A stretch of DNA of 64,000 bases from Lingula anatina (lineage: Eukaryota; Animalia; Brachiopoda). Below are positions 2,487 through 54,494 of the stretch, one piece after another. The stretch is from NCBI GenBank assembly GCA_051362555.1, contig CM120643.1, positions 3,782,001 through 3,846,000 of the forward strand. The letters run 5' to 3'. Position 1 is the stretch's first letter. Each line of letters starts with the position of its first letter. The position numbers and the translations under genes were made by a program. Under the pieces are notes generated by a model that did not search any database, was not told the DNA's origin, and worked only from the letters and a program-made list of their open reading frames with translations.

Positions 2487-2720
2487 AGTCATAATAACTC
2501 TTCATTTTGGCCAAAAATTGGATTTTCCTGGAGTAAACGGCAATTTTCCCGTACTTACCAATGGTCAGCGATCCCATTCCTGCATTCAAAGTTAGTCCAG
2601 GTTTTTTTTTCCTAAACGTTTGGTTTTTTGTTAAAATCTCTTAAGAGATTTTAACTGACAGAGCCCACTCTGACATTGCATAATCACGTGATATCGAGCG
2701 ATAGTTTCTGGTGACCTATT
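2487..2720 (-). mobile_element. Partial inverted copy of the TTAA-flanked MITE at 7774-8110
   Basis: TTAA at 2483-2486, then sequence that is the reverse complement of about 7950-8110. Confidence 0.65.
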
Positions 2721-2770
2721 TAAAACCGCAGGAAAAGCAGACAACAACAACACTACATAACAATAGTATA

Positions 2771-3056
2771 ACCCGCACGAAAACGCAGTAGATGCTCCAG
2801 CGCAGTAGACTACTGCAATCATACTGCAAATGTGCCTCAAATCTGCTTCGCATTGGGAGCTAATTAGCATATTTGAAACATGCTGCTATCATGCTGCTAA
2901 TCTACTGCATTAATGCTCCTCCTCTGTACAACCCTATATAATTTTTGAAGTAGAATTGCAGTAGGGTATACTGCATTTCTACTGCAAATATGCTCCACAC
3001 CACTACTGCGTTAATGCTTCTTTGCTACTTCGATACTACTGCATTTTCGTGCGGGT
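2771..3056. mobile_element. MITE with about 20-bp TIRs flanked by TA
   Basis: ta|ACCCGCACGAAAACGCAGTAG ... CTACTGCATTTTCGTGCGGGT|ta, with internal CTACTGCA sub-repeats. Confidence 0.65.
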
Positions 3057-3547
3057 TAAGTTTCATAAGATATATTCGTCTTATTGCTCAAAATGCATTT
3101 ATATCTACAATGTGTGATATTCTGGGCTTTTTGTTATCCAATGCACTGTACAAAGACTCGCAACTTACGTCTGCGTATTGCATCAGGTTTTTCGCGCCAG
3201 AAGTTATTTTGGTCTCGAATGAACGCGAGAAACCGCGTGACATCCCAACGTCATTGGCAACGGATGCCTTAACGACCGGGAAGAAGGGCATTGAAATCCA
3301 TATTGACAAGCACAGATTTAAGTTTTACTACAATAACGGCTGTTTTAGTGGTAAAATGCAATAGAATATATTTCCATGCGTTGTTTACAATGTATTTCTT
3401 GCAGAATTTTGAATCTCACAGGAAGAGTTAGTTTTGCTTTAACACAATTATAAATATCTACAGTTGTTTTTTATTCGGATTTCGTCTATTGTTGATGTCT
3501 GGCTGCATTGAAAATGAGCATGTTTAAATAAATTGTTAACTGCTAAT

Positions 3548-4450
3548 ATTATTATTATTATTATTATTATCATTATTATTATTTATGCCGGTTCAAGTAC
3601 ATTTTTTACAATGACTATGACCTAACAGTATACATTATATAACCATATAACTAAAATTACAATAATAAATTACAATATTGTTTTTATTAACTGCGATCAG
3701 ATTTTACAATTGCAGTATACACTCAGTGTCTTTGGTTGACTAGGTGGTGGTTGGTTGAGAATATTTTTTCTTTCTTTATTACACGTTGTGATATAGTGGG
3801 CCACATTCTTTATAACATCTAAATCGTTTGACTGCATTATACATTTGAACTGGCCCTCTGGGGTTTGTGTAGGATCTGGTTTTAGGATCTCCCTGTGTTT
3901 GGTGTGTAAGGGGCATTTTAAAAGAAAGTGTATTTTGTTTTCGACTTCATCTGAGCATAACTTGCAGATTCTTTCTTCAGGGGGTATTGGTTTTGGTTTT
4001 CGGTATCTGCCTCTTTGGATTTCTAAGTCGTGTGCCCCTGTTCTAAATTTTGCCAAATTTTGCATTTCATGTTTTGGTATAGGTGCTGTTGTGTACACTT
4101 CCCTTTCATAATTTGTTTTAAATAATCGATATGTACGTAGTATGCTGTTTTCTCGCTCTATTTCTTTGAGAAACAAAAAGGAATAGTGACTTTCCAGTGC
4201 ATTTTTTTACTTCTGCTTTCGAGGGGGTATTAGTCAGTGTTTTGATTAGGTTTTGAGTAATGTATTTAATTTCGCTTGACCAATTTTTTACCTGTGTGTC
4301 ATGTTTTGTTTCATATTCATACATTGTTTTTGCCATGCGCTGCTTTGGCATTTCAGAAAATCTTTGCCAATAGGATGTAGCATGACCAATTATGTCATGT
4401 GTAATTGGGAATATGCCTAGTTCTGCCTTAGCTGCTATATTTGATACAAC
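3548..4450 (-). mobile_element. 5'-truncated LINE: ORF2 C-terminus with zinc-ribbon motif and (TAA)n tail
   Basis: ORF 3697-4176 reads LRTYRLFK...LAKFRTGAHDLEIQRGRY...ERICKLC...HFLLKC. A (TAA)n microsatellite lies at 3548-3581 on the element strand. Confidence 0.85.
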
Positions 4451-4859
4451 AAAATTTTAGACCTCTTACCTGTCAAAATTCACATATTAAGGAAATTGGA
4501 TTGCTATTCGGGTAAAGTGTACAAAATATAAGATATCAATATAGTAGCTAAAATATAGTTGCTACAAATTCCATTTTTTATGTTGTGAAAAAGAGAGACA
4601 GCAGATGGGTAAAAACTCTTTAAAAACCTTTTGAATCCTTTAAAACATGAAAGTCTACAGTAGCTTTATTAAGAAATTAAAAAGACCGTGTGCAGGATGG
4701 GTGTAGTCAGACATAATTGTTCATGTTTTTGCTGCTTATCTTTCTGGATAAATGGCACTTATAGAGGGGAGATCGAAACCAATGATTTTGCTACATGTAC
4801 ATGTCACTTTCTATTGGACTATAAATTTAAACTGAATGCACTGCTCTATACACATCAAG

Positions 4860-5300
4860 GGAGTGTCATGGCGTACATTGTACCCATTCTTTTGATGGAC
4901 CTGTGCTCTGGAAATGTTCTCTTGGGCTTCAATCAACTTGGAAAACATATCTGATGGCTTTCAAGGGCTTCTTGCTCTGTTACCTCTGAGGTGGGGTTTC
5001 CAATTGGAAATTTGTCTTCATTTAGAAGAGATGCCTCTTTGCCAAATGCCAAAATGAAAGGCGTCTGTAGTTCTGTATGCAAGGAGACATGGGTCAATGA
5101 ACTCATCCCAGTTGTCTTGATGGGCATTTGCATACTTTGTGAGATAGTTGCAGACAGTCCTGTTGTAGCGTTCACATTGTCCATTCGCCTGAGGGTGGCA
5201 GGCTGTTCTACCATGATAATTGATGCCAAGTTGCTGATATAATCTCTCATTTACTTGGTTACGGAATTTGAGTCCTTGGCCAGGAATTAGCACCTTGACA
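4860..5300 (-). mobile_element. Gypsy/Ginger-type DDE integrase fragment (frameshifted)
   Basis: QG..F.NQV...HPQANGQCERYNRT...NWDEFIDPCLLAYRT, then TPF.L.FG and AQENISRAQVHQKNGYNVRH. Confidence 0.85.
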
Positions 5301-5514
5301 CTAGCACCTTTATCAAATTAGTTGTGGACCCTGAGGTACATCGGTCGCTACATGTTCTCATATTCAATTTTTTAAAAATACTTTTTGTTTGAAGAGACAA
5401 CCATTAATATTTGTTTGAGGAGACATACTCAATCACCTTTTCAACTTCTGTTTTGTTGTATTTTTAGTCAGTGACTAAAGGTCATTGTAAGGCATATTAT
5501 CATATACAACAATA

Positions 5515-5720
5515 TTAACAGATTGCAACTGGGGGTCTCTGCCAGCAAACCCTTTCTGCTGCAGTTGGCACAGGCCTGCAATTGGTACAGATACACCAGT
5601 CTGGTGTAACATCTGGCCTAGGTACAGGGAATGGCTGTCTGTTATGTATGTTGTCTGTGGTTCTGGACTGACGCTTCTCAAAATAACACGTGTACACCAT
5701 TCGATGCATTTGATGGAACT
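5515..5720 (-). mobile_element. P2X7-C-terminal-like (KolX-type) Cys-rich fragment
   Basis: PDWCICTNCRPVPTAAERVC matches the WCxCxxCxxMPTxxExxCC signature. Confidence 0.6.
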
Positions 5721-5971
5721 GACTTTATTGGTTTTATCACAAGTACATATCAATGTGCAGGGGCGCAGTGTTACGCGCCACACAATCTAGTCCCTAAGAT
5801 ACATAATACTGTCCACAGTGCCCAGGGATATTGTTGTTTAGAATTTTCTTTATGTCCAATGCCAAAGATGGGTTTCTGTTGGCATTTTAACAACAGTGTC
5901 AGTTAGGACATCTTTTTCAACATTTATATCACACTTGGCTTAAAATAAATGCCAAAATATTAGATAAGGTC

Positions 5972-6455
5972 CTAAGATAAGTTGTTTAGAGGTCTACCTG
6001 TATTTTTAATTAACCCTGTAATGATTGTAAAACTACAATTGTCTAGTGATGTAGTTATATATGTCACCTTTACTGATTGGGTCTTAACCTCACATGGAAA
6101 CATTACCAGTTTCCCCCTACAAAAACTCTCATACAAGTGTCTTCTCATCTGCTCTTGACTGGAAACAATGTCATACAGGTCAACCTTGTTCTCTAAACAC
6201 ACAGCTGTTGCAATGGCAAATAGGTCACAATCCTGACCACCAGCTTGTCTCTGTGGAGAATGCATTTCAAGACTCATTTAACATGACCTTGTTACAAAAA
6301 TTAGAATACAAACTCAACAATTGAGCCCTTAAATTAGGTGTCAGTCTTGGTGTTCATCTTTTTATTGACACATGCGGATACTACCCAATGTAAACCAACG
6401 TGATGAATTTGAATTCCATCTGTAACCATAGGTTGTATCCCCAAACCAGAGGCCA
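5972..6455 (-). mobile_element. Ulp1/SENP-like cysteine protease fragment (TE-associated), decayed
   Basis: GIQIHHVGLHWVVSA (catalytic His region) and QRQAGGQDCDLFAIATAVCL (catalytic Cys region). Confidence 0.7.
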
Positions 6456-6467
6456 AGAGGAGAGAAG

Positions 6468-6700
6468 CTAAAAGTCCCTGAAGGGATCATCATCTTCAAT
6501 ATTTTTGGAATGAAAACCAAGGAATTCCTCCTCATCCCTGTCACTGAATAACAGAGCATTAGCATTGGGTTTCTCTGCATTGAGTGAATCCAAGATCCCA
6601 GTTATCTCAAAGGATTTCTTCACCATCTCGCCAGAAATGCAGGCCCACTCACTTGAAACCCATTCCATGATTTCTTTTTTAGTTGCTGTCTTGACTTGGT
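6468..6700 (-). mobile_element. pogo/Tigger-type transposase C-terminal fragment
   Basis: IMEWVSSEWACISGEMVKKSFEITGI followed by an acidic tail with EEFLGF. Confidence 0.75.
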
Positions 6701-7773
6701 CTATATTTTCCTCACAACTGCATTCACCGCACTGTGCGTGCAATTTTTTGGGGCCAAGCATTAAATTTTTATCTGTAAGTTTAGTGCATTTTGTATTATA
6801 ATCGAAAATCCCCTACGATGTAAGTTTATGTCACCTGTATGTACAAATCCTCTGTAAAAATTGTTATGCATCATTGTTCTGACACCCTTGCGCAAGACAG
6901 CGGTCTAGCGTAGGAGCATGCGATGGCGCATATAGATCATTGATGTAGCTGTCGGCGATAAAGTTGAATATAGTGCTCAGCAAGTTACAAAAATATAATA
7001 AACAGTAAGTAATTTATGTGTAATGGTGCTTTCATAATTTCTAAATAAAAATGGTGGTTTTAAAAGTGGCCTGCAGCTGCCGGTGGGCAGGTTGAGTCCT
7101 TCAGTTGTCCCATTCAAAAACAGCACAAATAAGTGATAACAAACTCTCCTGTCAAGTGGCAGTTCCTTTGTTCGGAACGGTGGTCTGAAAACTCTGAAAA
7201 ACTTTGATGAATCATGGGGCAAGTTTCAATTGGGCACACTTCCTTGCATTCAGAAAATTTGAATTGTGCCCAAGGTGAGTCCAGCAATCGTTCATACAGA
7301 AAAAGAAAATTTGGATTCAGAGATAAAACGTTTTGTTCATAATTATTACAGCATTCGTATAGATCGGAGAATTACCGTAATTGAGCTAATTTTGTTTATT
7401 ACAGTTTTATCTTTTGATTTTTTAGCCACCCTTAGCAAAATTTAAGGCTTCTTGCAAACAGTTGCTGCAAATTTGCCGCAAACTCCCCACAAACTTAATT
7501 TTATTTTAGAAACTTGCACATTTAAATCAAATCAAATCAACATTTGGTAAAGGTTGTTCAGATATGTCTCCGATATAATGATATGAAGTGGATCTGCTAA
7601 TGCATTTTATTCATTGGAAAGAACAGTTACCAAGCTGTCAAGGATGCTTTAATTTTTAAAAGGATTCAACAACTTTATTTACATCTCCAAGTTTAAGTTT
7701 AAAGCAGTCTGAGTTTAATCATCGGGTCTCTAACAATATGAATTAATTCTGTTAATTGGCTTCAATATCTTAA

Positions 7774-8110
7774 AGGGATAATAACTCTTCGTATGAGGTC
7801 TATATATCACAATAAAAACATTGTGAATAACTCATAGAAATATTATGTATTCTGTTTTACAACAAAAACAGCAGTTATAGCTATTATTCTGATATCTAAG
7901 CTTGTCTTCAGACCACGTGACCTCCATTGATGGCTATGCTCTGTTATAATCTCTTAAGAGATTTTAACGAAAAACCAAACTTTTTAGAAAAAATACAGGG
8001 ACTTACTTTGAATGTAAAAATGGATTCATTAACCATTGGTAAGTATGGGAAAATTGTTGTTTACTCCAGGAAAATTCATTTTTTGGCCAAAACGAAGAGT
8101 TATTATCCCT
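7774..8110. mobile_element. Non-autonomous DNA transposon with TTAA TSD and AG..CT termini (Kolobok-like MITE)
   Basis: TTAA|AGGGATAATAACTCTTCGT ... ACGAAGAGTTATTATCCCT|TTAA: perfect 19-bp TIRs. Three further copies occur in the window. Confidence 0.85.
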
Positions 8111-9436
8111 TTAAACTTGTTCATTATTCACTGTAATGTATTTTGGGTGTATGAATATATAAGGAGTAGAACTTAGTATAAGAGATCAGAGCTCAGAGTG
8201 AGTTTGGTCAGTTGAATCCGAAAGCTGGTTTGTCCCCGCTGTCCTAGGAGACTCCAAATCTGTCAGCCAGAGAAATAAACATAGAGATCAGGCAGGTTGA
8301 AGTTGATCTCTGGAAAACAAATCACCACTGTTGTGTCACCTGCTAGAGAAGTCAGACTAAATGTCCACTGTGATACAAGCACCACATCTCATCTGAAAGA
8401 GAAGAAAAATAAAACAACACGTTTCTTGTAAAATCTGTTGTGTTCACAGGTAGTTTGTCAAGTAAGCTTCTAGTAGATTTCCTTAATCCTTAATAAGTAC
8501 ACACACACATATAAACTCTGAAAATTCTGTTAGAGTTTCTTAAATATCATCAAAAAAGTTACAGGTAAAATCATTCTTCTCACCATTCCTTTCTCACAGT
8601 ACCAGTCAAAGTTACTGTGATTTTCTTCTTTAACTCCTAAAATTCATTATAAGTAAAACATAGAAAACTAATTACATTATAGGCAAAAGGGTCTGTAAAC
8701 TCAAAATTGAATTTGACAGGCTCAAAAGATGCTATATTGAGAACAGATTTTTTTTTTTTCAAATTCCTTTGCCATTGATAATAATCTGGTTTGGACTTCA
8801 AGTAAAACAGTAAGCAAAGTATTATTTTGTCAATTTTGTCATTACTCCCAGAATAACCATTTTTTCCCCATTTGCAGGTTGTTTTTCTTTACTTAAAATC
8901 TTGTTGACATTTGAAAGCTGCTGAATCCTTTTCATTGTTCTTTTGGAATGTTTTCTTGTGGTTCATCATTTTAACAAAATTTTAGATGGATCACAGTTGG
9001 AGTTTATTATCAAAGTGCCCAAATATGCAAGTGCAACACAAAGTTTTGTTTCAGTACCTTCTTCCAATTAAGCCAAATAACATAGCTCATGCTGAGTAAC
9101 ATAAGTCCCAAAAAAGCACAGATGAATGCAAATGCAAGTTTGTGGTACAGCACGAACTTTGGTGGAGGCATTTTCAAGGCAAAAGCTAACAAAGAAAAGA
9201 AAGGATAGAGCTTAAAAAATGGAAAGCAAGGAAGCAACCAACATGCAATATGTAAAATTGTCAGCATCAGTTCTTGACCTTTTCTTTTTCAGTCTTGCAA
9301 GGTGTTCCGTGTTGGTGTAATCTTGGTAACAAGCTCTGTGATATGCTTCAACTGGCCCATCTTGCCAGTGACTCTTGATTGCATTGTAGCATGCATCTTT
9401 GCAAACATCAGCTGCTTTTTTAAATGTATCCCAGCT

Positions 9437-9710
9437 TCATAATATAAAGTTTTGATACACAGTTGCAGGCACAATTTCAAACTGATATGGACCTGTGTAC
9501 AGAAGGAACTGCCAAAACTCAGTTGCTTTCCAGTATGCAATTTCAAAGAGTGATCTAGGTTTTCTTGCAAACTCTGATGGTATACTGTCTTTTAAGGCCA
9601 CTAAACGTCTTGATATTTCCTGCAATACCCTACTACCAAGTCTACAAGATAACAGACCCTTCATCCACAGATTTAACAGCCTTTTCACTACCCCTTTTCT
9701 CCACCACATT
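9437..9710 (-). mobile_element. CACTA/EnSpm-like (animal) transposase fragment
   Basis: IPSEFARKPRSLFEIAYWKATEFWQFLLYTGP...VYQNF motif. Confidence 0.8.
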
Positions 9711-10089
9711 TACTTATAATGTCATATTGGGTAGTTGTTTTCTTTAATATACGTGGGACCTTAGGCAAATGAAGATGGTAAAAATCTGTTAAATGACCCA
9801 TGCTTATTTATGAAATTCAGTGGTGTATATGATAACTTACATGTAGATTCAACAGTGGCCATGCAGGTATTTGTGGGAGGTAGAGGAAATGAAGACTTGT
9901 AGTCTTTTCTTGATTTAAAAAAATTATCCCATCATCTAAAAATCTGTGTGTTATTCTGGGTCAGTTCCATTTTACACTTTTCTAGGTCCTTCTTAAATTT
10001 TTTTGTGTCCATGAGGGTTCCATCTGGTTCAAAGACCTGTAATTGTGGTATTTCTTTATGTTCATATCCCTGTGTCATTCTTGGAGTTA

Positions 10090-10240
10090 GAGAGCCATTC
10101 ACAAGTTCTTTGTTGCTAAAACTTGCAGACACAACCCAGCGTGATCCAGCATGATGAATGTGAATTCCAGCTGTAACTAAAGGTTGCAGGCCTATCCAGA
10201 TAAAGCATACGGCTTGGTGAGGTGCAGTTACAACATTCAA
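10090..10240 (-). mobile_element. Second Ulp1-like protease fragment
   Basis: GLQPLVTAGIHIHHAGSRWVVSAS aligns with GIQPMVTDGIQIHHVGLHWVVSAC at about 6370-6450. Confidence 0.55.
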
Positions 10241-10410
10241 AACGTTTTCAATAAAATGAATTTTTGTGCAACAAGACGTAGAAGATGAGGTTCATATACA
10301 CACGACAGATATGAGTGCAATCTGATGAACTCCACAGTTTAGAGATATTACTGTAAGTATTGTAGCAATGTCCAGCACAAGGCCAAAATAATAGTTCAAG
10401 TTCCTAATTG

Positions 10411-11308
10411 TTACTTTCTTCCACCTCCATCTTTTCTTTCTGGTGCCCATTTTAGATAGTTAACGATGCTGTCGGTGACTTCCTTCTCTGTAGAGCTATA
10501 TCTTGACATCATGACATCTGGGAAAAAAAGTGAAGTAGAAATGTAAGCATATATGTATCGAACGTACGCTGGCAGGTGTGCCTATCATAGCTCATTGAGG
10601 GATTCTAAGAATGAGGTTAAGATTGGGTGTTAAATTCCAGCTAGGGTGCAAAATGTAAGAACTATTTTTTTAGGCTTAGCTGCCCAAACTGGAGCTGATA
10701 GATAGCTGATAATTTTATTACAAAAATCAAATCAGGCACAAATTACAGCAGTAAATGTAAAATACAATGCAACATTAATTTAATTACCTTTGATCACCTT
10801 AAAGAAGTTGCTGTGCCCAAACGGAAATTTATTTTTCTTCCCTGAAAAATTCATCCCAGCCATAACTCTGTTGGTCATACACCTACAAATAATATTTATA
10901 AAATAAAGGATATATTGAATAAAATCAGAAATGTCTTGGTTTGATCAAGAAAAGTCCAAAAAATTGGAATAATAACCTGCACTTATTTTTAAAATTCTGA
11001 TAAAAAGGTTTATACTGCCAAACAAACCAGTATAATGTAGCTATACACATGTGTAGGTTCGACTTTGTAATGTAATTAATTTACTAACATGGACAGAAAT
11101 GTGTCAAGTGTAAAAGTATTAGTTATCATTCCATAAAGGTTTGATCATAACTTATACCTGAGTTCTAGGTTTCAGATATGTATTTTACACATTAAACACA
11201 GGAAAAAATTAAGTAAATGCATATATATTAGTATTTGTCCTACCTTTGCATGGCCTTTTTAGTGTGATCACACATGTTGATACCTCCTATCTCAGCAACT
11301 GTGGCTTT
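10411..11308 (-). CDS. Three spliced 3' exons of a DUF4806-like TE accessory gene (11308-11244, 10882-10788, 10517-10411)
   Basis: Canonical AG/GT sites with matching phases. The joined reading is KATVAEIGGINMCDHTKKAMQRCMTNRVMAGMNFSGKKNKFPFGHSNFFKVIKDVMMSRYSSTEKEVTDSIVNYLKWAPERKDGGGRK*. Confidence 0.65.
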
Positions 11309-11717
11309 CTATCAAATGGAAAAAATAAATGTCATTATTATAAAAATAATAACTAGTTTTTGTAATTATATTATTGAAACTGTGTGGCAAAACTTGCAAA
11401 TATACAGGCATCAAACAGCAAAACATGCTTTCTTTTTGGTAATTTTAGGTACTGATGTTATATATGAAATGCCCACAGTCACAAGATGGACAGAGACATA
11501 CATATGTCACGCTGATCCATATTGCATGAACTAATAAAAAGGGAAAAAATCTTCATATTTGAGTGTTGAAAGTGTAACTGTAACTGTAAGGAACTGGAAA
11601 AAATGAAAAATATCTATTCTTACCAAGAGACTAGACTGTTCTTGTACCTGTTCTTGTACATGAGACATTTCACATGTTTCTTTTGGCTTTCCCACATTTC
11701 CGTAATTTTTTCTGTGT

Positions 11718-12720
11718 TTAACCAAGTGTGTCCCGTCCTGCAGGATCACTGAAGGCTGCCAGCAGCTGGTTAATTAGATTTAATGTTTCTTTCTCACCCC
11801 TGGTGGTACGTCTGCAATGCAAAGCAAGCTCTTTCCAAGTCAGTCGTTTCATATTTTCATCTCTGTCAGTCGATGGGTGCAGTTCATTTGCCTTGGCATC
11901 AAGTAAGAGCTGGAGGTTGTCTCTGTCCCAAGTGAAGATGTACTTGCTGAGGGTGGACGTGAAGACACTGTATAGGGGGTGGGAATCAGTGGTGCAGCCA
12001 GTAGACAGGCGCCTCATAAAATGCCAATGTCCAGCCTGATGACTGTATCTTCCCAACTGTAAAAAATCTTCTTCAAGTTTGTTTTACTAAAACAGTCCCT
12101 ATCCACATATACCAAAGTTGGAGGGGGTTCTGCTGCATCCCTTCACCTAATAACCAGCCCCTGTGCCATTTTGGTCAAGCCATGGCCCTCACCTGCAGTC
12201 ATTACAGAGTTCAGGACTTGACCGTGCTCATTTCCAACATTCGTGCACCAAATAGCGGTCTTGGTTGCCAGGTTGCCATACCAGCTAATTTCTTGACGAC
12301 CTTTTTAGTTTAATCAAGCTTTAATATATTTCCAAACTGACTTGTCAGCACTGCTTTCAGTTGGGGAAGCCTGTCCATGACATAATGGCATATGCATGCA
12401 TCAGCCATCTTGGTTGGGGAACATGCTCTCTGGGCGGAGGCTGAACAAACACTGGAGGGGCAATGAGACCTGTCTGGGAAGCTTTGTGGAAGGGATCGCA
12501 GTCTGACCCATACTGAACAACCTTCCTGAGCCAGGGGTCTGTGTGTTGTACACGAAACTTCTTTTGTATTTGTAAGCTTCTGATTCTTAGGCCCCTCTCT
12601 TGTAAAAGACTGATCACTTTAACATTGCAGGCCAACTTTGCTGTTAGAACAGCTGGGAAGTAAAGTCCGTGGCCAACATCCAGCTGTTGGATTATGTCCA
12701 TACTCCAACTCACCAGTTTC
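11718..12720 (-). mobile_element. DUF6729-like DDE transposase fragment (possibly Dada-related), decayed
   Basis: FPAVLTAKLAC..V..LL; ILKLD*TKK; WCTNVGNEHGQVLNSV; YVDRDC; WHFMRRLSTGCTTDSHPLY...IFTWD, spread across frameshifts. Confidence 0.6.
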
Positions 12721-12744
12721 CAAACCAATCTAAAAGCCCCCCCC

Positions 12745-12990
12745 CCCCCCCCAAATTCCAATTTGATTAGTCTTTGCGCCGCTAAAATATGTCTGTCATT
12801 CAGCCATCCATTTCCTAACAGTGTATTTATGTCCCCTTTGGTTAGCCTGACACCTCTAACAGTGAGATTTTCATCTTCATTTTGTGTCCTATCATTGTCT
12901 ATAGCTGATATGGGATGGTTGCAATACCCTGAAAGGGATTTCAGCTGGTACTCAACCACACCCTCACTCTCACAGTTGGTACATATATTT
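12745..12990 (-). mobile_element. Third Ulp1-like fragment (N-terminal part of the protease domain)
   Basis: LTKGDINTLLGNGWLNDRHILAAQRLIK (WLND motif). Confidence 0.6.
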
Positions 12991-14059
12991 TCTGTTATCT
13001 GAGATTGCAATATAAAATCAAATGATAAGTAGGTGTAGGATGTTAGCCTTTTACAATATGGGTTATATATGTATATATTTATATATAACATCAGCAGGCA
13101 AGATTATGTCCCTTCTCTAAAAGGATTTTAGAGAAAATTTTTACTCTAAAATCTGTCTTTAGTCAGGTTAGAAAAAGTAATCATTATAAATATATTTTTT
13201 TTATTCAAAAAGGGTATTTCAGCCATACTATGGCAACATTAGATAAACATTTGGAGATGATAGATATGTAGTTCACATTTTAAATTGCAAAGTACAGATT
13301 CATTGCTCAAGACAATTCTTCAATTATAAGATGAAAATTTCAGTCTAACCTATATCCAGAAAAATGCACAATCTGGTGACGACACATATTAAAATGAATG
13401 CTTCTTAATGTATATTTGCCAATTCAGGATACATGTATCTAATTAAATCTACATTTGTCCTTTTATACAAATAATATTAATACAAATTATTTAAACATTA
13501 CCGTTATAAGTTGCTATACCTGATAAACATCTTTTATGTGTCTTTGGCTCACCCTTGGTAACTGTAGGTGGCAAAGGAAGAACAGGAGAAGGGCAACAAG
13601 ATATACTGGTAGAACGGTAATCCTCTCTTGGGCTAGTAATGTCTGTTGGTAGCTCTAAATCAGGAAATCTATTTTCAGTTTTATTACCCAATATTAAACT
13701 ATTCAGTTCTGTTTCATGTGCTAGTAATGTGCATACTTTGGTGTTGTTGTTGTTATTATTATTATAATTATTAAAAGCAGCACAGATTATGCAAAAATAC
13801 TACGGAGCAACTAAAATCTAGAGTACTAAAACCATCATCATCTATGTTCTCTTTGTTTTGGGAAGGTCTACATGGCTTGATCCTAATTAATTGTCCTGAT
13901 TATATGTCTTTTCTAGTCATATATTTTCTCTACTGACATCTGTAATGTTTGTTCTACAAACCCATCACCATCTCCACATTCCATCAGTTGAAGGATTGTA
14001 TTTTGTAGGAGTAAACTGTGGATACTGTGTTGTGAAGGTGAAAATATTCTGCACAGAAA

Positions 14060-14420
14060 ACTGAGGAGCCCTGTGATACAGTGGTCAGGGCATGTGTCTT
14101 CTCTCTTCAGGCTCACTTTTTATTCTGTGTCTTCAGATAATGCAGACTTGTTGATAAATCATTCTTCAACCTTTGACATTGATTAGCAGAAATGAACCCT
14201 TTGATCTGCCAAAAATCACACTGTTCTCTGAAAGCCCTTAAGCCTTTTGCGCCATCTGCTGCAATGTTAGCACAGCTCTATGCCTTTCTGGCATATTTCT
14301 GTGGATCCAGGGTTCTCCTATCATCTGCAAACCATTTTCCACAGGCAGAATCTGGCACAAACTAGTCCAATTTTATTTTACTTAATTGTCATGTGATTTG
14401 TTAAAGAAGGTGGTGTAAGT
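14060..14420 (-). mobile_element. Unclassified decayed transposase-like coding fragment
   Basis: NIAADGAKGLRAF...LHYLKTEYK...TCPDHC across stops and frameshifts. It resembles repetitive uncharacterised proteins of marine invertebrates. Confidence 0.35.
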
Positions 14421-15099
14421 GAGGCTCTCCAATCCGTTTTTACACGTTTCATTAGAGAAAAGCCCCTTTCTGCATTGGCACTGCTGACTGGAAGGACCAT
14501 CACAATGGCCAAGAGAGCACAAATATTGGTTATTTGTCTTTATGTACTGTCAGCATACTACTTAAAAAGGCAACAAGCTTACTATGTCCTGCCCCTTTTC
14601 ATGAAACTCCAGCACAGATTTTTTCAACATAATTTCTTAGCAATTAGAAGTGGGTATTGACATATTTTCACGTTTTAGTTTGACGTAAAATTTATGAATG
14701 GATGCATATATGGTGATATTGAAATGTTGTAATAGAAATAACTTGTTCAAGATTATAGAGATATGATAAGGTTTATTTGGGTGCAAAGCTGAGGGACTGT
14801 GGAAGTATTGTATTCACACGTACTTGAATGAAGTCAAAAGTAAAAGATGTGCTGGCATGCATTAGGTGTGTGAAAGTTATCTTCCAGAGTTTCTCAAAGG
14901 AAAGTAAAAGAGATAAACGTGACTGTTGAGGATATTTTGAAGATTAAAAAACAACAAGAGTGGAAATCAATAAATAATTTTAATATGACGAAAAAAACTG
15001 TACAGAAAATGTTGAATAAAATAGACAAAAAACTCCGAAAAATTGATATCGTTAAGTCACTGAAGTAGACGAGGTACTGCTAAGCCGTGAAATGGTAGA

Positions 15100-15770
15100 C
15101 CGTGCTGCTACTGAAACGAATAGCTGTAGAGCCGTTGGTCGATAGATCGTGCTGTGGGCCGCTGAGACGAGTAGCTGCAGAGCCGTGGGTCGGTAGATCG
15201 TGCCATGGGCCGCTAAGACTAGTAGCTGCAGAGCCGTGGGTCGGTAGATCGTGCCATGGGCCGCTGAGACGAGTAGCTGCAGAGCCATGGGTCGGTAGAT
15301 CGTGCAGTGGGCCACTGAGACGAGTAGCTGCAGAGCCGTGGGTCGGTAGATGTCGTCCCGTGCCGTGGGTCGGTAGATGTCGTGCCGTGCCGTGGGCCGC
15401 TAAGACTAGTAGCTGCAGAGCCGTGGGTCGGTAGATTGTGCCATGGGCCGCTGAGACGAGTAGCTGCAGAGCTGTGGGTCGGTAGATCGTGCCGTGGGCC
15501 GCTGAGAGGAGCAGCTGCAGAGCCGTAGCTCGGTAGATCGTGCCATGGGCAGCTGAGACGAGTAGCTGCAGAGCCGTGGGTAGGTAGATCATGCCGTGGG
15601 CTGCTGAGACGAGTAGCTACAGAGCCGTGAATCGGTAGATCGTCCCGCTGAGACGAGTAGCTGCAGAGCTGTGGGTCGGTAGATCGTGCCGTGGGTCGCT
15701 GAGACGAGTAGCTACAGAGCCGTGAATCGGTAGATCATGCCGTGTGCCGCTGAGACGAGGTGGGCCGCTG
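15100..15770. repeat. GC-rich 51-bp minisatellite, about 12-13 imperfect copies
   Basis: Unit GCTGAGACGAGTAGCTGCAGAGCCGTGGGTCGGTAGATCGTGCCATGGGCC at 15161 and 15212. Confidence 0.9.
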
Positions 15771-16065
15771 CTGTAGAAGAATAGACTGAGCAGTAAAACT
15801 GCCCAGCTTATATACATGCTGCAGGTAAAAATCGTTCTGCTTCGAAAGAGTTAAAAAACGGGAGGGGGGTAGGGTAAACCGTCGCTGACACGTGACAAAA
15901 TGTTATTTTGGCTAGTAATCTATAATAAATATCTGATTCAAATTGAATAAAGTAACTTTTCTGATTTTGGAACCGAGACGGCAGTTCTGTTGTTTCTGAC
16001 ACCGACATCGCCCACTGATAGAGACTGTTTATTATGAATTAACACAAAAATTAACAGTCAGTTAC

Positions 16066-16284
16066 CTCCACATCTCTGCTGCCATTGATGTGACAGACCA
16101 GTCTTTCTTCAAATGAATTAAAACTGATGCGGTATTTAAATTCTACACAGTTGCCAACTTTTACAGGTGAACTGGAGTCATCACGCCAGAGACTGACAGG
16201 TATGGTGTCTGTGGTATCTGGAACCAAAATACTTCTCAGTTTTGCTGGCTTTCCTTTCACCATTAAATCCTTGGTACTTTCTTC
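16066..16284 (-). CDS. Isolated phase 0-0 exon encoding an OB-fold-like (RPA-type) segment
   Basis: Polypyrimidine-CAG acceptor and GTAAC donor enclose 219 open nt: KDLMVKGKPAKLRSILVPDTTDTIPVSLWRD...VKVGNCVEF. Confidence 0.5.
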
Positions 16285-16599
16285 CTGTGAAAAGTTGAGA
16301 AAAGAGTTCAACAAAAGAAGCTAACAATAAATAAAATATTAGCCTGCAATACTATGCAATGGTTTTGGAATGTTATTGCAAAATAGTTATTTGTGGTACC
16401 TCTTGAAGATCCAGTGATAATCCTATACAGACTTATGCTAAGCACAAATATCCCAATGTGACATGATGCTGATGAAATACCTTCAGTGACAAACTTAGTT
16501 AAGATCAAAACTTAAGTTTAACAATGCATTAAAAGTACAATATCTCTCACCATACAGGGCTCTGTAATAACTTTTTCAGCCATGTGCCCAGCTTCTAGA

Positions 16600-17460
16600 A
16601 GAGTCACCCGTCACAATCATCGTTGACATGATGGCGTCTCTGGCCTCCATGCAGCCACCTGTCATACAGCTTATCTGCATCAAATGCCTCATATGATTCA
16701 CCCTCAGTGGAAATGAGAAGAAGGTTATCTAACAGGCTGGGCCTAGTTTCATAAAGGACATTGTGTTTCCTAGATCGCATTCACAACGAGTTGAGCCAGG
16801 CTTTACAAATCCTGGGGACTAAATATGGCAGACGTACATGAAAGAAAAACCGCCTAATCTTTTAATAGTCTCTCCGCCTCTCACACACCTCCCCTGCAGG
16901 GGGACAGTCATTAAATATCGGCTCTATTGGAACGACACATGGGGAGGCGTGTGGTTTTTCTTTCATGTACGTCTGCCATATTTAGTCCCCAGGATTTGTA
17001 AAGCCTGGCTCAACTAGTTGTGAATGCGATCCTAAACTGTTTAAACAGCCGATAAGTTAACTGGCCAGTGTATAGCTGCATAAAATATTTAAAGGTCAGT
17101 TAACTAACCAGCTGTTTAAACACTGTTTATGTTTAAAATTGTGTTTCATAGGAGAATTTATCCACTGGTTAGGCTTATACACTGGTTAGTGCTAAACGTC
17201 CTTTATGAAACTGTTTTCATTCTCTTCACTTCACTGAATCCACATTCACAGACTGCTGAAGACATGGCAGTCACTAAAAAAATTTCTAATACCATACTGA
17301 TGTTACTGAATCTTCTCTGTAATTCTTTATCTGTAAACAACATGGCCCATGTATCCTGGATGTGTGCAGCATTACGTCTACCCTCACATTTACTCTGTTC
17401 ATTACCAAAGCTTTAAGTGCTGGCCTCTTGGGTTCTGGTCATACCCAAGTCTCTGCAGCA
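16600..17460 (-). mobile_element. hAT (ZNF862-like) transposase dimerisation-domain fragment interrupted by nested MITEs
   Basis: FSNISMVLEIFLVTAMSSAVCECGFSEVKRMK (about 17330-17213) continues beyond the insertion as LDNLLLISTEG...FDADKLYDRW (about 16730-16640). Confidence 0.75.
16740..17213. mobile_element. Harbinger-like MITE carrying a nested long-TIR MITE (16773-17031)
   Basis: Outer TIRs AGTTTCATAAAGGAC / GTCCTTTATGAAACT. Inner near-perfect inverted arms of about 78 bp, GATCGCATTCACAAC... / ...GTTGTGAATGCGATC. Confidence 0.75.
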
Positions 17461-17839
17461 ACTCATTAAAATAAGCCATTATAATTTGGAGATCAGCATT
17501 CCTGTGTACAGCCAATTGACCTATTTATGGAGATTTCACGATTTTATGAAATTAAATATCCATTCTTTTACTTTATTTTGACACTTGCCCGACATCAATG
17601 TCTACTTGCTCCAGGCAATCAGGAAATCCTTATTGTTGAGCCCTGGACAGTTACATAGATAAGCATTCTTGGGCAGGGTAATGTAGTACAGGTTGCTGGT
17701 TAATATGAAAACACTAACATGCTGTGATGTTTCCAGTACTACAGCTAAATGAAGTTAATTATGTGCTCGGTGAGGCATGGCAAGAAACACATGCTGATGG
17801 TCACATTTAATACCACGGTCCGTTAACATGTGATAGCTG

Positions 17840-18660
17840 ATACAAGAAGGCGCACATCTTGGTGGTGAGAGCTTTATCAAAGTGTTTTACTCTATTCTAA
17901 CACAGGTGATGTTTTACAGTAGGTTTATTCACAAAAGCGTTGTAGTCGAAGGCCATTAATAGCTTCACCTTCCTCGCCACCATATAAAGACACTAGTGCC
18001 TTTTCACAACCTCAATAATCCTTTCTTGACATGAATTGTCACTGGCAAATGTGATTGCCTGCTGTTTGAAAAAAGGACTTCTTATGCCCATTAGAGATAC
18101 CCGTTTTCCTATCCCAAAGGGAAATGATGTTGTGTCACATCCTAAGATGGAATGGATGAAGAGAATACTGTTGCATACATCACTTCCTAACTTGGCCCTT
18201 CTTGTTCTAATGTTCCAGCATTTTGATGGTCCTTTGGCATTGCTCTTTTGTTGGGGTTTTAAAAAAATTGGTAAACTTTGTCCTTGGCATGATACAGTAG
18301 GACTAGGAGCACCAGAAGATCAGTGTCATCACCCGCAAGGATAGTATTATATCATGTTTGTCTGAAGAGGCAACTGCAGCTTTGGCAATATGGAGGTCTG
18401 CATTGCCTGAAGCTTGGTTTACTTGAACTCCAACACTTTCCAACTTGTCACCAAGGAAATTAATGAACCTCTGTTTGTTTTCTTTGTTGGCAAGAAATTC
18501 TTCCTTTCTACTTTGCAGCTTCATCTCACCAGTGAACATGACAGCTGTGCTCATACTGTTGGACCTTCTTAGTTGTGTAGAATCCTTAGTAGAGGGGCCA
18601 TGAAGATAACCATCAAACACCACTACATCTTTATTACTAGGACATATGTGACATACTGGT
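17840..18660 (-). mobile_element. Academ-like transposon XPG/PIN-type domain fragment, decayed
   Basis: VVFDGYLHGPSTKDSTQLRR...FLANKENKQRFI...ADLHI...DDTDLLVLL...HSILGCDTTSFPFGIGK. Confidence 0.7.
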
Positions 18661-19770
18661 GTACAAATAACCATCAAACACCACTACATCTTTATTACTA
18701 GGACATATGTGACATACTGGTGTGCAAATAACCATCAAACACCACTACATCTTTATTACTAGGACATATGTGACATACTGGTGTACAAATAACCATCAAA
18801 CACCACTACATCTTTATTACTAGGACATATGTGACATACTGGTGTGCAAATAACCATCAAACACCACTAGTTTTATTACTAGGACATATGTGACATACTG
18901 GTGTACAAATAACCATCAAACACCACTACATCTTTATTACTAGGACATATGGGACATACTGGTGTACAAATAACCATCAAACACCACTACATCTTTATTA
19001 CTAGGACATATGTGACATACTGGTGTACTAATAACCATCAAACACCACTACATCTTTATTACTAGGACATATGTGACATACTGGTGTACTAATAACCATC
19101 AAACACCACTACATCTTTATTACTAGGACATATGTGACATACTGGTGTACAAATAACCATCAAACACCACTACAGTTTTATTACTAGGACATATGTGACA
19201 TACTGGTGTACAAATAACCATCAAACACCACTACAGTTTTATTACTAGGACATATGTGACATACTGGTGTACTAATAACCATCAAACACCACTACAGCTT
19301 TATTACTAGGACATATGTGACATACTGGTGTACTAATAACCATCAAACACCACTACAGTTTTATTACTAGGACATATGTGACATACTGGTGTACAAATAA
19401 CCATCAAACACCACTACAGTTTTATTACTAGGACATATGTGACATACTGGTGTACTAATAACCATCAAACACCACTACATCTTTATTACTAGGACATATG
19501 TGACATACTGGTGTACAAATAACCATCAAACACCACTACATCTTTATTACTAGGACATATGTGACATACTGGTGTACAAATAACCATCAAACACCACTAC
19601 AGTTTTATTACTAGGACATATGTGACATACTGGTGTACAAATAACCATCAAACACCACTACAGCTTTATTACTAGGACATATGTGACATACTGGTGTACA
19701 AATAACCATCAAACACCACTACAGCTTTATTACTAGGACATATGTGACATACTGGTGTACAAATAACCAT
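18607..19770. repeat. 61-bp minisatellite, about 19 copies, derived from the Academ-like coding sequence
   Basis: Unit TAACCATCAAACACCACTACATCTTTATTACTAGGACATATGTGACATACTGGTGTACAAA at 18607, 18668 and onward. The first unit encodes VVVFDGY on the minus strand. Confidence 0.95.
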
Positions 19771-21252
19771 ATTTCAGCTGATTGAAAGTCAACTGCAGCT
19801 GGTTTGTCTTTGTGGCTTTGATAAACAATGGCTACCAGATAATTACGAGGCCTGTATGCTGGGGACTTATGAGAATTCCTTTTAGAACAGTGCATTAAGA
19901 TATGAGATGAGAGTTGATATATTGTTTCTTATGTGTCTGAAAGAAAAAATAAGTTTTGAAGTCATCCATTTCCCCCCCCCCCTCCTTTTTTTATTATTTT
20001 TTCCTCCCTGACATCAGGAGATAGGGTCCATGTTCCTGTAGCTATCTACAGACATCCACTGGTATTCATTCTGAACATGGTGCGTGCCCAAAAAATTTTA
20101 AAAAAACACATAATTTATTTATTTATTTTATTTATTTTTTTGCATGTATTTTGGTGACTGTCTTACCATAAATACCAAACCATGTTTTTGTTTTAAATCA
20201 AATTTGCACAGAAGCTTTGTTTAGTAAAAAAAGGCTGCTTGAATGAAAAATTAGCAGGATTTGATTATTTTTACCAATACTTAATATGTACAGTTTTATA
20301 AGTATTGAAAGAAGCTATTATATAACTTATGGTTAAGCTGGTGAAGTTGATAAAACCCATAGGCCTTGGCCCATATTTGTATATATTTGGTGCAGAAAAA
20401 ATCTATTAAACTCTTTTGTTGCAACATGTTTTGTGTCTGTATATTTTGCCAGCTTTGCTGTCTAGTCTTATGTTAGTGCTCATCTTATGGTTTGCCCAAA
20501 GATAATTAAGTATAAAAGATGTCTGCAGCACTTTTATATTAGTAATATGCAGAGAATTGTTTTAAAATAAAGATTTTAGCAACTTTTTTGCAATAAGTAT
20601 ATAGAAGCTTTTATACTAATATGTACAGTACACTACTGTTGTGATCTCATTGTAGTCTTAATGTAAAAGATGATTTATAATTATTGTTTTTGTTGCTTAC
20701 TTTGTAATATTGTAACTTTTGTTAATTTTTTACATGAAATCGAATCAAAAGACAAGGCATTTTCTTATCTTAGATATCCAAAGTTATTTATTGGGTTAGC
20801 TTGCCTAAAGTAGTGCTAATGAACTAATAGTGGATAAAGCAAGTCAGAATGATGACTGAATCATCACATTGTTAATGCCTGTAATAAGTACTGGTACCTA
20901 GTAAATTCCCACCTGGTAATTCTGGAGCTGTTTGTAATCAAAGAATGTTTATTTATTTAATAAACCTCATTAGTGCAGAATTTTATTTAAGAGAAACTGG
21001 GTTGAACTTGTAGAGAGGCATAGATAAAGAGAAGGGAGAAAGAGAAATTAAGTAGTAAGAAAATTTCAGACTCCTATAACTGTTGTTATATTTTCTCTCT
21101 CATGCCTCATTGGCTACATTCAGAACAGTGGACTAATGGATCCCCAGATTAAATATGGCCACCTTCTAAAGAGCTTATCACTTAAAATTAAAATTCCTGA
21201 TAAGACACAAAATAGATTATGATGTGACTATTTTATTCATCAGTGCATAAGA

Positions 21253-21474
21253 GATCATAGTTGTATATGTGTCTGTAGTCTCATATGGAAATCACTGAAC
21301 ACACTGTGGACATGATATACAGTGATGATCATAGTTATATATGTGTCTGTAGTCTCATATGGAAATCACTGAACACAATGTGGACATGATATACAGTGAT
21401 GATCATAGTTATATATGTGTCTGTAGTCTCATATGGAAATCACTGAACACACTGTGGACATGATATACAGTGAT
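21253..21474. repeat. 74-bp tandem triplication
   Basis: GATCATAGTT...ATACAGTGAT at 21253, 21327 and 21401. Confidence 0.9.
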
Positions 21475-21546
21475 AAGAGAATGGACATGTTAAAAGCAGC
21501 AAACTACAGTCTCTTTGCAGTAAATTTCAGGCTTTTGTTTCCTTAA

Positions 21547-21728
21547 AGGGATAATAACTCTTCGTATGAGATCTATATTTCACAATAAAAACATTGTGAA
21601 TAACTCATAGAAATATAATATATTCTGTTTAATGACAAAAACAGCAGTTATAGCTATTATTCGGATAGAAGCTTGTCTTCATATCACGTGACCTCCATTG
21701 ATGGCTATACTCTGTTATAATCTCTTAA
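21547..21728 (+). mobile_element. 5' half copy of the Kolobok-like MITE
   Basis: TTAA|AGGGATAATAACTCTTCGTATGAG matches 7774 onward and stops at the internal CTCTTAAG. Confidence 0.8.
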
Positions 21729-22432
21729 GTCATTATTTATCATACTTATATTATTTTAGGTAATTATATGATTTCATCAACTTTATTCATAACTTTCAAT
21801 TTAAATGCACTTCTTGAAAATGTATTTGACCTTTGTTTTTCTGAGAATTATCATTTCAACATTATAAATGTACCAACCAACTTTTAATTACAAATAAATA
21901 TTGAAAATTATTATTTATTGTTGTTGTTTTATTTACATGACTGTGTAAGAATATTGAGGTCTAAGAACTCAGTCCCAATAAAAATAAGAGTGCATTCAGT
22001 GCTTTATCTGTCTAGGTAGATCAATTCAGGGGGACTATTGCTGAATACAATCAGATTAAGAGATTAGCATACCACCCCCTAGCTTTGAGTAGAAAATGGA
22101 AAACAAGCATGTTATAAACAAAAGGAGGCAAGCCAATCCAATTGCATTCAGCAAGAGTCCCTGTGGAGTTGGATCGATTTACATAGACCAATAGTGTCAT
22201 TGTGAATGAGTCCTAAATTGAGGCACTAGTAGATATGTCAGTGGCAATACTAAGATGAATAAATATAAAATGATAAGAAGAAAGTGTAGTGATAGTTTCT
22301 AATATGATTCTTTTACTTCCAAAAGTGTTTTATGCGGTTCAAAGTGATAACATTGGTAAAATTAAAGAATCGGGGACCACTGAAAGACAAAGTATATTGC
22401 AAACTTTTTGAGAGGTAAAAAACTAGGCCATG

Positions 22433-22591
22433 CAGGCCCGTAGCCAGGGGGGGTTCGAAAGAACCGCCCCTTTTGCTGGGAAAAGGTCCACTCTGGGTAA
22501 GATTTGATCTAGGTAAATGAAGTTTTTATGGGAAAAGGTCCACTTTTTCAGAAAAAGAACCCCCCTTTTGAAATTGCTGGCTACGGGCCTG
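22433..22591. mobile_element. CAGG-terminal MITE with an imperfect 5-bp TSD (hAT5-like)
   Basis: ccatg|CAGGCCCGTAGCCAG...CTGGCTACGGGCCTG|ccatt. Confidence 0.75.
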
Positions 22592-22638
22592 CCATTGTCT
22601 CCCATTTCTCCCTGCAGAATCTTACAGATATCAAGTCA

Positions 22639-22967
22639 GCGACGTTGTATATGTGCGCACGCATGTTATTACGTCGCTCATTCTTCTTTGTTACGTTAAA
22701 ATGATACATACGTTACCATAAAGCGTGTAAATATTTTTTATTCTATTTTCATTGGTTGTCACTCCTTTTGTGCGCCAACACTATTTTAATGAAACACAAA
22801 TAAAAGACATAAGTGTTGGCCCACAAAGCGAAAGAAAACCAATGAAAATAGAATAAATATTTACACGCTTCATGGTAACGTATGTATCGGTAACGTATGT
22901 ATCATTTTAGCGTAACAAAGAAGAATAAGCGACGTAAAAACAAGCTTGCGCACATATACAACGTCGC
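22639..22967. repeat. Long imperfect palindrome (foldback), arms about 145-155 bp
   Basis: GCGACGTTGTATATGTGCGC...CCAACACT and AGTGTTGG...GCGCACATATACAACGTCGC, separated by a spacer of about 28 nt. Confidence 0.85.

Positions 22968-43462: not shown

Positions 43463-43501
<39 letters not shown>

Positions 43502-54455: not shown

Positions 54456-54457
<2 letters not shown>

Positions 54458-54494
<37 letters not shown>

What the first reader, a model, noticed from the sequence alone, without database searches (positions are those of the whole stretch)
3548..19770. Strand-uniform mosaic of about 14 unrelated transposon fragments: candidate antisense piRNA cluster / transposon memory locus
Seen: in about 16 kb, short (0.15-1 kb) pieces of a LINE RT, a Gypsy/Ginger integrase, a KolX-like Cys domain, three Ulp1-like pieces, pogo, CACTA-like, DUF4806, DUF6729-DDE, an unclassified transposase-like piece, an OB-fold exon, hAT and Academ-like XPG. 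All are on the minus strand. Some abut directly (the pogo tail runs into Ulp1 at about 6460; Ulp1 runs into DUF6729 at about 12740), and I found no TIRs belonging to these fragments. If orientations were independent and random, 14 of 14 on one strand has p = 2 x 0.5^14, about 1e-4; this is overstated if some pieces share a parent element. Known: uni-strand piRNA clusters such as Drosophila flamenco accumulate TE fragments antisense to their transcript. Inference: a plus-strand precursor here would yield antisense guides against many DNA-transposon superfamilies, and the terminus-free butted pieces suggest fragment acquisition rather than normal transposition. Alternative: cargo captured by one large Helitron-like or Pack-type element.
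Basis: partly seen in the sequence, partly recalled or inferred. Interest (0 to 1): 0.85.

Follow-up and report, generated by a model that had tools for sequence, protein, structure and literature searches.

The report
Antisense-transcribed transposon patchwork in a brachiopod
In what is likely a brachiopod (Lingula) genome, 16 kb is packed with broken pieces of at least seven unrelated kinds of jumping gene that all face one way and are copied at low level into RNA from the opposite strand, so it is likely a source of transposon-silencing small RNAs (piRNAs), although the small RNAs themselves could not be tested.

Summary
The mosaic is real. Eight pieces from seven families have tool support at E≤1e-3: LINE, Ty3/foamy-like integrase, KolX-like, CACTA-like, DUF6729, two hAT and Academ-like. 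All eight lie on the minus strand. Three Ulp1-like pieces, OB-fold and DUF4806 are weakly supported; pogo rests on recall. Two best protein hits are Lingula anatina at 85%. New evidence: stranded RNA-seq from one study shows plus-strand RNA across the repeat-free bins (about 45 against 8 read pairs, estimated from depth; FPKM about 0.2). The strand was calibrated on a GT-AG splice at 23791/24339. The RNA is therefore antisense to the pieces. A second study shows few reads and no bias. The pieces look like insertions cut down in place (a 585-bp internal deletion in the CACTA piece, kept introns, a LINE with its own tail), not terminus-free acquisitions. No flanking TIRs were found, and DNA depth is uneven and partly single-copy-like, which argues against one composite element. 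Best reading (0.6): a uni-strand piRNA-precursor locus like those of slugs. Main rival (0.25): an ordinary intron or long UTR purged of sense insertions. piRNAs are untested.

The parts
3547..4456 (-). 5'-truncated LINE: C-terminal end of ORF2 plus (AAT)n tail at 3547-3583
   Evidence: 37% over 140 aa to the window's RVT_1-bearing LINE, E 1.5e-20; tail
4880..5465 (-). Gypsy/Ginger-type integrase remnant, broken; tool-supported core 5063-5299, outer limits by eye
   Evidence: PDB Ty3 Gag-Pol E 6e-4, foamy integrase E 8e-4; frames; 'Ginger' is a recalled label
5518..5724 (-). KolX-like Cys-rich piece (Kolobok accessory protein)
   Evidence: Pfam P2RX7_C E 2e-4; KolX is homologous to the P2X7 C-terminus (PMC9587614, passages)
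6040..6462 (-). Ulp1-like piece a (His and Cys motifs, frameshifted)
   Evidence: PDB top hit Ulp1-like SUMO protease E 0.61; 79% nt over 66 bases to piece b; weak
6471..6812 (-). pogo-like transposase C-terminal tail (label recalled, unconfirmed)
   Evidence: 114-aa stop-free frame; no database support
7770..8114 (.). High-copy MITE with TTAA-flanked TIRs, a later insertion
   Evidence: 23-nt inverted pair; very high read and contig depth
9215..9436 (-). Unassigned coding-like piece in frame behind the CACTA piece (resembles Academ N-termini by recall only)
   Evidence: 74-aa stop-free frame; not hit by the Academ profile or Pfam
9440..9780 (-). CACTA-like transposase remnant: aa 129-156 joined to aa 352-437 of a Lingula protein, about 585 bp deleted between
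   Evidence: 89% and 93% identical segments to LOC106163773; parent has DUF4218 at E 3.5e-4
9935..10291 (-). Ulp1-like piece b (His motif)
   Evidence: 59% aa over 27 residues to piece a; no PDB hit
10414..10893 (-). DUF4806-like piece in two exons with a GT-AG intron (about 10520-10788)
   Evidence: splice ends; E 0.5 to a DUF4806 protein; no Pfam hit; weak
11650..12728 (-). DUF6729 transposase-like remnant, about 360 aa colinear with relatives, 4 frame changes and 2 stops
   Evidence: Pfam E 2e-26; 686 relatives; HSP map; Mutator-like only as a lead, score 0.78
12753..12929 (-). Ulp1-like piece c (start of catalytic domain), joined to DUF6729 across a G run
   Evidence: PDB top hits SENP2 E 0.085; no DUF6729 relative aligns here
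13916..14119 (-).
   Evidence: stop-free frame only; no Pfam hit
14230..14560 (-). hAT transposase C-terminus 1
   Evidence: Pfam Dimer_Tnp_hAT E 5e-6 at 14381-14539; outer limits by eye
14923..15896 (.). Segment with a 51-bp tandem array; skipped in one contig of another DNA run
   Evidence: joint 14922-15897
16066..16286 (-). OB-fold-like internal exon with AG and GT ends
   Evidence: RPA top hits E 0.8; splice ends; weak
16620..17340 (-). hAT transposase C-terminus 2, interrupted by a MITE at 16745-17212 that is absent from a contig of another DNA run
   Evidence: 49% aa to hAT 1, E 5e-6; MITE TIR; empty site; continuation beyond the MITE is weak, p 0.03
17901..19770 (-). Academ-like transposase remnant (aa 118-359 of a Lingula protein); its 5' part is amplified as a 61-bp tandem array at 18606-19770
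   Evidence: 73-88% per segment to LOC106162148; array
4669..24800 (+). Low-level plus-strand RNA across the mosaic and on to the spliced exons; continuity as one molecule is inferred
23692..24800 (+). Spliced plus-strand exons joined over a GT-AG intron at 23792-24338; strand control for the libraries; end of the last exon approximate
   Evidence: 5 spliced reads in X14, all first mate on minus; splice sites

Best explanation
This is a patchwork of eroded transposon coding pieces that all lie antisense to a low-level plus-strand RNA, and it is likely a uni-strand piRNA-precursor locus. Shown: the pieces, their common orientation, and plus-strand RNA over them in one study. Inferred: a long Pol II transcript, spliced near its 3' end, runs through the region. 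Elements landed there one at a time. Antisense insertions were kept because the transcript then yields PIWI guides against the parent family, and sense insertions were lost. Deletions then removed termini and spacers, butting 0.1-1 kb cores together, while new MITEs and local tandem amplification kept remodelling the locus. Untested: that 24-32 nt piRNAs are made here and that they silence the parent families.
For: 8 of 8 tool-supported pieces are minus. Study P5 runs X12, X13 and X14 put 83%, 88% and 84% of depth in repeat-free cluster bins on the first-mate-minus side, about 45 against 8 pairs estimated from depth. A GT-AG junction shows that this side is plus-strand RNA. Pooled X13 and X14 have such reads in 15 of 19 bins. 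RNA reads at 5211-5218 carry the letters of a DNA contig at depth 184, which suggests alleles of this locus. Close parents exist in Lingula (73-93% per segment), so guides would still have targets. Ordinary intronic orientation bias is weakest or absent for DNA transposons (PMC1391917, PMC4353498, passages). Slug clusters are uni-strand over densely packed antisense fragments (PMC11615739 section 9). Snail clusters are enriched in young Kolobok and hAT (PMC6128900 section 8). Each lophotrochozoan phylum has PIWI1 and PIWI2, and no siAGO was found in brachiopods (PMC11114477, passages).
Against: No small-RNA data. RNA depth in the cluster is about 0.35, 5-10 times below the last exon bin (1.75 and 3.7), which also fits intronic pre-mRNA. 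Study P6 (X15-X17) gives about 10 against 7 pairs, p 0.6. Over the LINE piece X12 leans the other way (1.16/0.32 and 1/0.43). High-copy MITE bins also lean to first-mate-minus in P5, so cross-mapped reads carry their own bias. Two of 19 pooled bins are empty and two hold only opposite-strand reads. Plus-strand AATAAA is not below shuffled expectation (15 against 10). No genome-wide background for strand-uniform runs was available.
Confidence: 0.6

Rival explanations
1. An ordinary intron or long UTR of a weakly expressed plus-strand gene or lncRNA. Transposons inserted and decayed; those in sense orientation were purged because their splice and polyadenylation signals cut the host transcript. 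No piRNA role.
For: Spliced plus-strand exons lie 4 kb downstream, and the cluster has 5-10 times less depth than the last exon bin. Coding pieces with their own splice sites would be harmful in sense. Antisense bias within transcribed regions is general (PMC1391917, passages).
Against: That bias is weakest for DNA transposons in human and not significant in cichlids, while six of the eight firm pieces are from DNA transposons. It does not explain the density: about 8.7 of 16.2 kb annotated with weak labels and the array included, against no Pfam transposon hit at 20-53 kb. The proven intron bin 23677-24343 has depth 0.12 in X13, below the bin upstream (0.58), a small-number hint that upstream RNA is not simply spliced out.
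Confidence: 0.25
2. Cargo of one large Helitron-like or Pack-type element that captured DNA pieces in a fixed orientation.
For: Pieces keep introns, as DNA-level capture would. A 6-bp-arm hairpin followed by a CTRR motif lies on the plus strand at about 20059, near the right border (1 of 3 such sites in 26 kb on both strands, no control). Several bins have contig depth 2-7 times the lowest ones.
Against: No TIR or long direct repeat joins the two borders. Depth in X3 is uneven, 92 to 1286 across MITE-free cluster bins, with several bins at 160-260, like the empty-site contigs (184, 156); the tool warns this is no copy number. No host-gene piece was recognised among the cargo. One contig of the CACTA piece leaves the window at the deletion junction, which points to the parent family and not to a copy of the mosaic (record 2).
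Confidence: 0.08
3. Chance plus ascertainment: a transposon graveyard whose borders were drawn around a run of same-strand pieces, with unrelated background transcription.
For: Borders are post hoc. Only 8 pieces are firm (p 0.008). The >=80-aa stop-free test is not significant. Pfam misses degenerate pieces.
Against: The strand of the RNA was predicted beforehand and matched (p about 2e-7 on estimated pairs). Composition favours minus in 36 of 45 bins against 52 of 110 in the flank.
Confidence: 0.07

Closest known systems
Uni-strand piRNA clusters of the slug Arion vulgaris (PMC11615739, section 9 read)
   Same: Lophotrochozoan; densely packed transposon fragments on one strand, transcript on the other.
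   Different: piRNAs are shown there and untested here. The section read gives no family make-up or fragment sizes.
piRNA clusters of Lymnaea stagnalis and Crassostrea gigas (PMC6128900, section 8 and passages)
   Same: Enriched in young DNA transposons such as Kolobok and hAT, with Gypsy; Academ is named for an oyster cluster class.
   Different: The word 'strand' does not occur in the main text, so orientation is not reported there; supplements not seen. Defined from small RNA.
Drosophila flamenco and flam-like clusters (PMC10643416, passages)
   Same: One strand transcribed from a discrete unit, spliced, fragments antisense, selection for antisense insertions proposed.
   Different: flam-syntenic candidates there span 227-1085 kb and their bias is driven by Gypsy alone. 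This is 16 kb, mostly DNA transposons, with one integrase piece.
Read-through piRNA clusters downstream of genes (mammalian piC-DoGs, PMC11615739 passages; mosquito core clusters, bioRxiv 10.1101/2022.08.22.504762, search listing only)
   Same: Antisense fragments inside a Pol II transcript.
   Different: Here the spliced exons seen lie downstream of the mosaic. No upstream gene is in the window, so read-through could not be tested.

Membership tests
Uni-strand piRNA cluster | Dense transposon fragments | tested here: met
   8 firm and 5 weak pieces in 16 kb; about 8.7 of 16.2 kb with weak labels and the array included; no Pfam transposon hit at 20-53 kb
Uni-strand piRNA cluster | Fragments antisense to the transcribed strand | tested here: met
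   Pieces minus; RNA plus in study P5, strand calibrated on a GT-AG joint. Not seen in P6, which has few reads.
Uni-strand piRNA cluster | One long single-stranded precursor | tested here: inconclusive
   Plus-strand reads in 15 of 19 pooled bins at depth about 0.35; short reads cannot show continuity or a start site
Uni-strand piRNA cluster | 24-32 nt, 1U, PIWI-bound small RNAs, more than 10:1 from one strand | not testable with these tools
   The 9 RNA runs listed are all long RNA-seq
flam-like cluster (PMC10643416) | Gypsy-dominated antisense content over hundreds of kb | tested here: not met
   One integrase piece among 8 firm pieces; 16 kb
Read-through cluster (piC-DoG) | Lies behind the polyA site of an upstream gene on the same strand | not testable with these tools
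   No gene recognised at 1-3500; no genome held
Pack-type composite DNA transposon | TIRs and a target-site duplication around the cargo | tested here: not met
   Only 12-17 nt matches between the border zones, chance-level or from MITEs
Helitron with captured cargo | 5' TC and 3' hairpin plus CTRR | tested here: inconclusive
   One short plus-strand candidate at about 20059, none on minus, no control
Composite mobile element | Whole mosaic recurs at other loci with shared ends | tested here: inconclusive
   Uneven contig depth with several single-copy-like bins in one DNA run; no genome to search

The most novel reading that the evidence does not exclude
A self-compacting antisense archive. 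Selection on guide content trims each trapped element to a 0.1-1 kb coding core, or pastes such cores in at DNA breaks, so that one 16-kb transcript stores memory of seven or more transposon superfamilies. It would be the first piRNA source locus described in a brachiopod and a place where cluster compaction can be watched across alleles.
Probability: 0.2. Interest if true: 0.75.

Novelty: new member of a known kind. Interest (0 to 1): 0.5.

Why it matters
I found no description of a brachiopod piRNA cluster in three searches (titles and abstract starts only). If confirmed, this locus extends flamenco-like logic to a cluster made mostly of DNA transposons. Close parent proteins are on record for Lingula, and the locus is polymorphic for recent insertions. 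That makes an open question testable: whether clusters gain content by trapping whole elements and then eroding them, or by taking up fragments. If it is only an intron, it shows that coding DNA-transposon remnants can reach full antisense bias with no silencing role, a caution for annotating clusters from layout alone.

Tried and rejected
No whole genome was held, so junction copy number and a background rate could not be computed. A word-index search with the Ulp1-DUF6729 frame found none of 904 candidates; the full HMMER search then found 686 relatives. The Atlas could not read the OB piece. Metagenome scans: none for the Ulp1 piece; one 36% match for the pogo piece, in a frame beside a terminase-like ORF, rejected as spurious. 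Pfam gave nothing for the integrase, Ulp1, pogo, DUF4806, OB, Academ pieces or the two downstream exons. PDB gave nothing useful for pogo or Ulp1 piece b. Rfam: 0 matches in 64 kb. No RNA holder was listed in the index; the RNA runs used were additions by species label. X18 is balanced on both sides and was treated as unstranded. Rejected: one natural Ulp1-DUF6729 fusion, since no relative aligns across the G run. Rejected: capture from spliced mRNA, since intron ends are kept. Rejected: an assembly artefact, since nine runs from three studies hold 37-49% of sampled words and X3 covers 30 of 30 bins, with contigs at 14021-14271 and 17737-18095 running across piece borders. Depletion of polyA signals on the plus strand was not found. 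Paper searches for DUF6729 and for Zisupton plus Ulp1 returned 0.


Full report
Source. The window is animal DNA of about 35% GC. No genome is held. Two pieces have their best protein hit in Lingula anatina at 85% identity (LOC106163773; LOC106162148); the next hits are 65% and 53%. The organism is therefore likely Lingula, a brachiopod.

The observation. Eight pieces have tool support at E<=1e-3, and all are on the minus strand: a LINE 3' end, a Ty3/foamy-like integrase core, a KolX-like Cys domain, a CACTA-like transposase, a DUF6729 protein, two hAT C-termini and an Academ-like transposase. Three Ulp1-like pieces, the OB exon and DUF4806 have only weak support (E 0.085 to 0.8; none). The pogo and unclassified pieces have none. 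The labels CACTA, Academ, Ginger and pogo are recalled. KolX rests on Pfam P2RX7_C plus PMC9587614 (passages). tblastn with 274 fetched proteins at E<=0.01 hit only the minus strand, but those queries came from minus-strand pieces. Strand-neutral tests: Pfam on 66 plus and 77 minus segments gave three credible hits, all minus. Stop-free stretches run 14 to 4 at >=100 aa and 22 to 14 at >=80 aa. Composition favours minus in 36 of 45 bins against 52 of 110 in the flank; this test is partly driven by the T excess of the plus strand (4480 T, 4005 A). Pfam missed a Tc1-like remnant at 37.2-38.9 kb that is plain by recalled motifs, so faint plus-strand pieces may have been missed. Eight of eight gives p 0.008 with post hoc borders.

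Anatomy. The CACTA piece is residues 129-156 joined to 352-437 of its parent (89% and 93%), so about 585 bp were deleted inside one element. The Academ piece is colinear with residues 118-359 of its parent at 73-88% per segment, and 61 bp of its coding DNA is amplified 19 times. The DUF6729 piece is colinear over about 360 residues with four frame changes and two stops, and begins just after a G run that separates it from a Ulp1-like piece. No DUF6729 relative aligns across that run. The LINE keeps its (AAT)n tail. The DUF4806-like and OB pieces keep GT-AG ends. Coding pieces have no TIRs; the only inverted pairs over 14 nt are MITEs at 7770-8114 and 16745-17212. Contigs of DNA run X3 skip 2487-3447, 14923-15896 and 16741-17210, so these segments are likely polymorphic. 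Inference: elements inserted as DNA and were then cut down by deletion.

Transcription. Seven of nine listed RNA runs were laid at 95% likeness. In X14, five reads splice 23791 to 24339 over a GT-AG intron, all with the first mate on minus; in study P5 that side is therefore plus-strand RNA. I kept 19 of 30 bins per lay and dropped those with high-copy MITEs, the LINE, or outside the cluster. In P5, 83%, 88% and 84% of depth is plus-strand RNA, about 45 against 8 pairs estimated from depth (p 2e-7), FPKM about 0.2. Pooled X13 and X14 show it in 15 of 19 bins; two are empty and two hold only the other strand. The signal continues through 19.7-21 kb and 23-25 kb, where the last bin reaches 1.75 and 3.7. 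Reads at 5211-5218 carry the same letters as an X3 contig of depth 184, which suggests alleles of this locus, though near-identical copies elsewhere cannot be excluded. Against: study P6 gives about 10 against 7 pairs; X18 is unstranded; the LINE bins lean to sense RNA in X12; MITE bins lean to the same side as the cluster in P5. Tissues are unknown.

Copy number. Nine DNA runs from three studies hold 37-49% of sampled words. X3 covers 30 of 30 bins. Depth over MITE-free cluster bins runs from 92 to 1286; several sit at 160-260, like the empty-site contigs (184, 156), and single contigs sit near 70-120. The tool warns that this is no copy number. It fits a single diploid locus with a few low-copy relatives within 5%, and fits a uniformly repeated composite element poorly. 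No TIR or long repeat brackets the mosaic; one weak Helitron-like end lies at about 20059.

Mechanism. Best reading (0.6): a uni-strand piRNA precursor that traps elements, keeps antisense ones, and is compacted by deletion. Orientation and antisense RNA are shown; one long precursor, selection and piRNA output are inferred. Rival (0.25): an intron or UTR purged of sense insertions. [quoted passage not shown] Composite element 0.08, chance 0.07.

Comparison. It works like the uni-strand clusters of the slug Arion (PMC11615739, section 9 and passages) and has the family make-up of snail clusters (PMC6128900, section 8 and passages). It is not flam-like in the strict sense, being small and not Gypsy-dominated (PMC10643416, passages). 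Each lophotrochozoan phylum has PIWI1 and PIWI2 and no siAGO was found in brachiopods (PMC11114477, passages). Capitella loci reach only 10 kb (PMC8915122, passages), so the size is not small for the clade. Membership as a piRNA cluster stays open because small RNAs were not testable. Searches for Lingula or brachiopod with piRNA (4 of 4 and 15 of 23 papers listed) showed no cluster study by title or abstract start. Three AI notes from other genomes describe similar mosaics; they are unchecked leads and suggest the pattern recurs. No supplements were read.

Verdict. Real, non-random and antisense-transcribed. A candidate new member of a known kind. Interest 0.5.

Noticed in passing
window 22617-24800 (+): A spliced plus-strand transcript of unknown kind. 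Only the 23791/24339 junction was seen in reads. A putative upstream exon ending at about 23037 is in frame with the next two, which would give about 90 codons; no Pfam hit for the two exons. An inverted-repeat element sits at 22639-22967.
   Followed up: partly
window 53390-62100 (+): Broken LRP/megalin-like gene pieces: EGF_CA and LDL-receptor class B exons with stops, one exon duplicated (54265-54461 and 60085-60281), and a 45-bp tandem array grown from an EGF exon.
   Followed up: no
window 54460-59500 (-): Near-full-length broken LINE with RVT_1 (E 1e-39) and upstream PHD and RNase H1 N-terminal (Cauli_VI) matches, inserted among the LRP-like exons and antisense to them.
   Followed up: partly
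window 37199-38860 (+): Tc1-like remnant with TIRs and decayed transposase motifs (recalled; no Pfam hit). It faces the opposite way to the mosaic and lies outside it.
   Followed up: partly
window 2482-3448, 7770-8114, 21543-21730, 60361-60560: Family of TTAA-flanked MITEs with AG/CT ends, which fits the Kolobok rule quoted in PMC9587614. The copy at 2487-3447 appears to hold a nested element and is absent from an X3 contig and one X12 read.
   Followed up: partly
window 39700-46400: Local duplication of about 4 kb (spacing 4040-4110, 92-100% identity) with smaller 2.1-kb repeats.
   Followed up: no
window 7060-7320 (-): A further protein-like reading between the pogo-like piece and the MITE; no Pfam hit. 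It may be one more minus-strand fragment.
   Followed up: partly
window 1-1671, 49183-49968, 50739-53235, 62544-63491: Tandem arrays with units of 146, 62, about 193 and about 162 bp.
   Followed up: no
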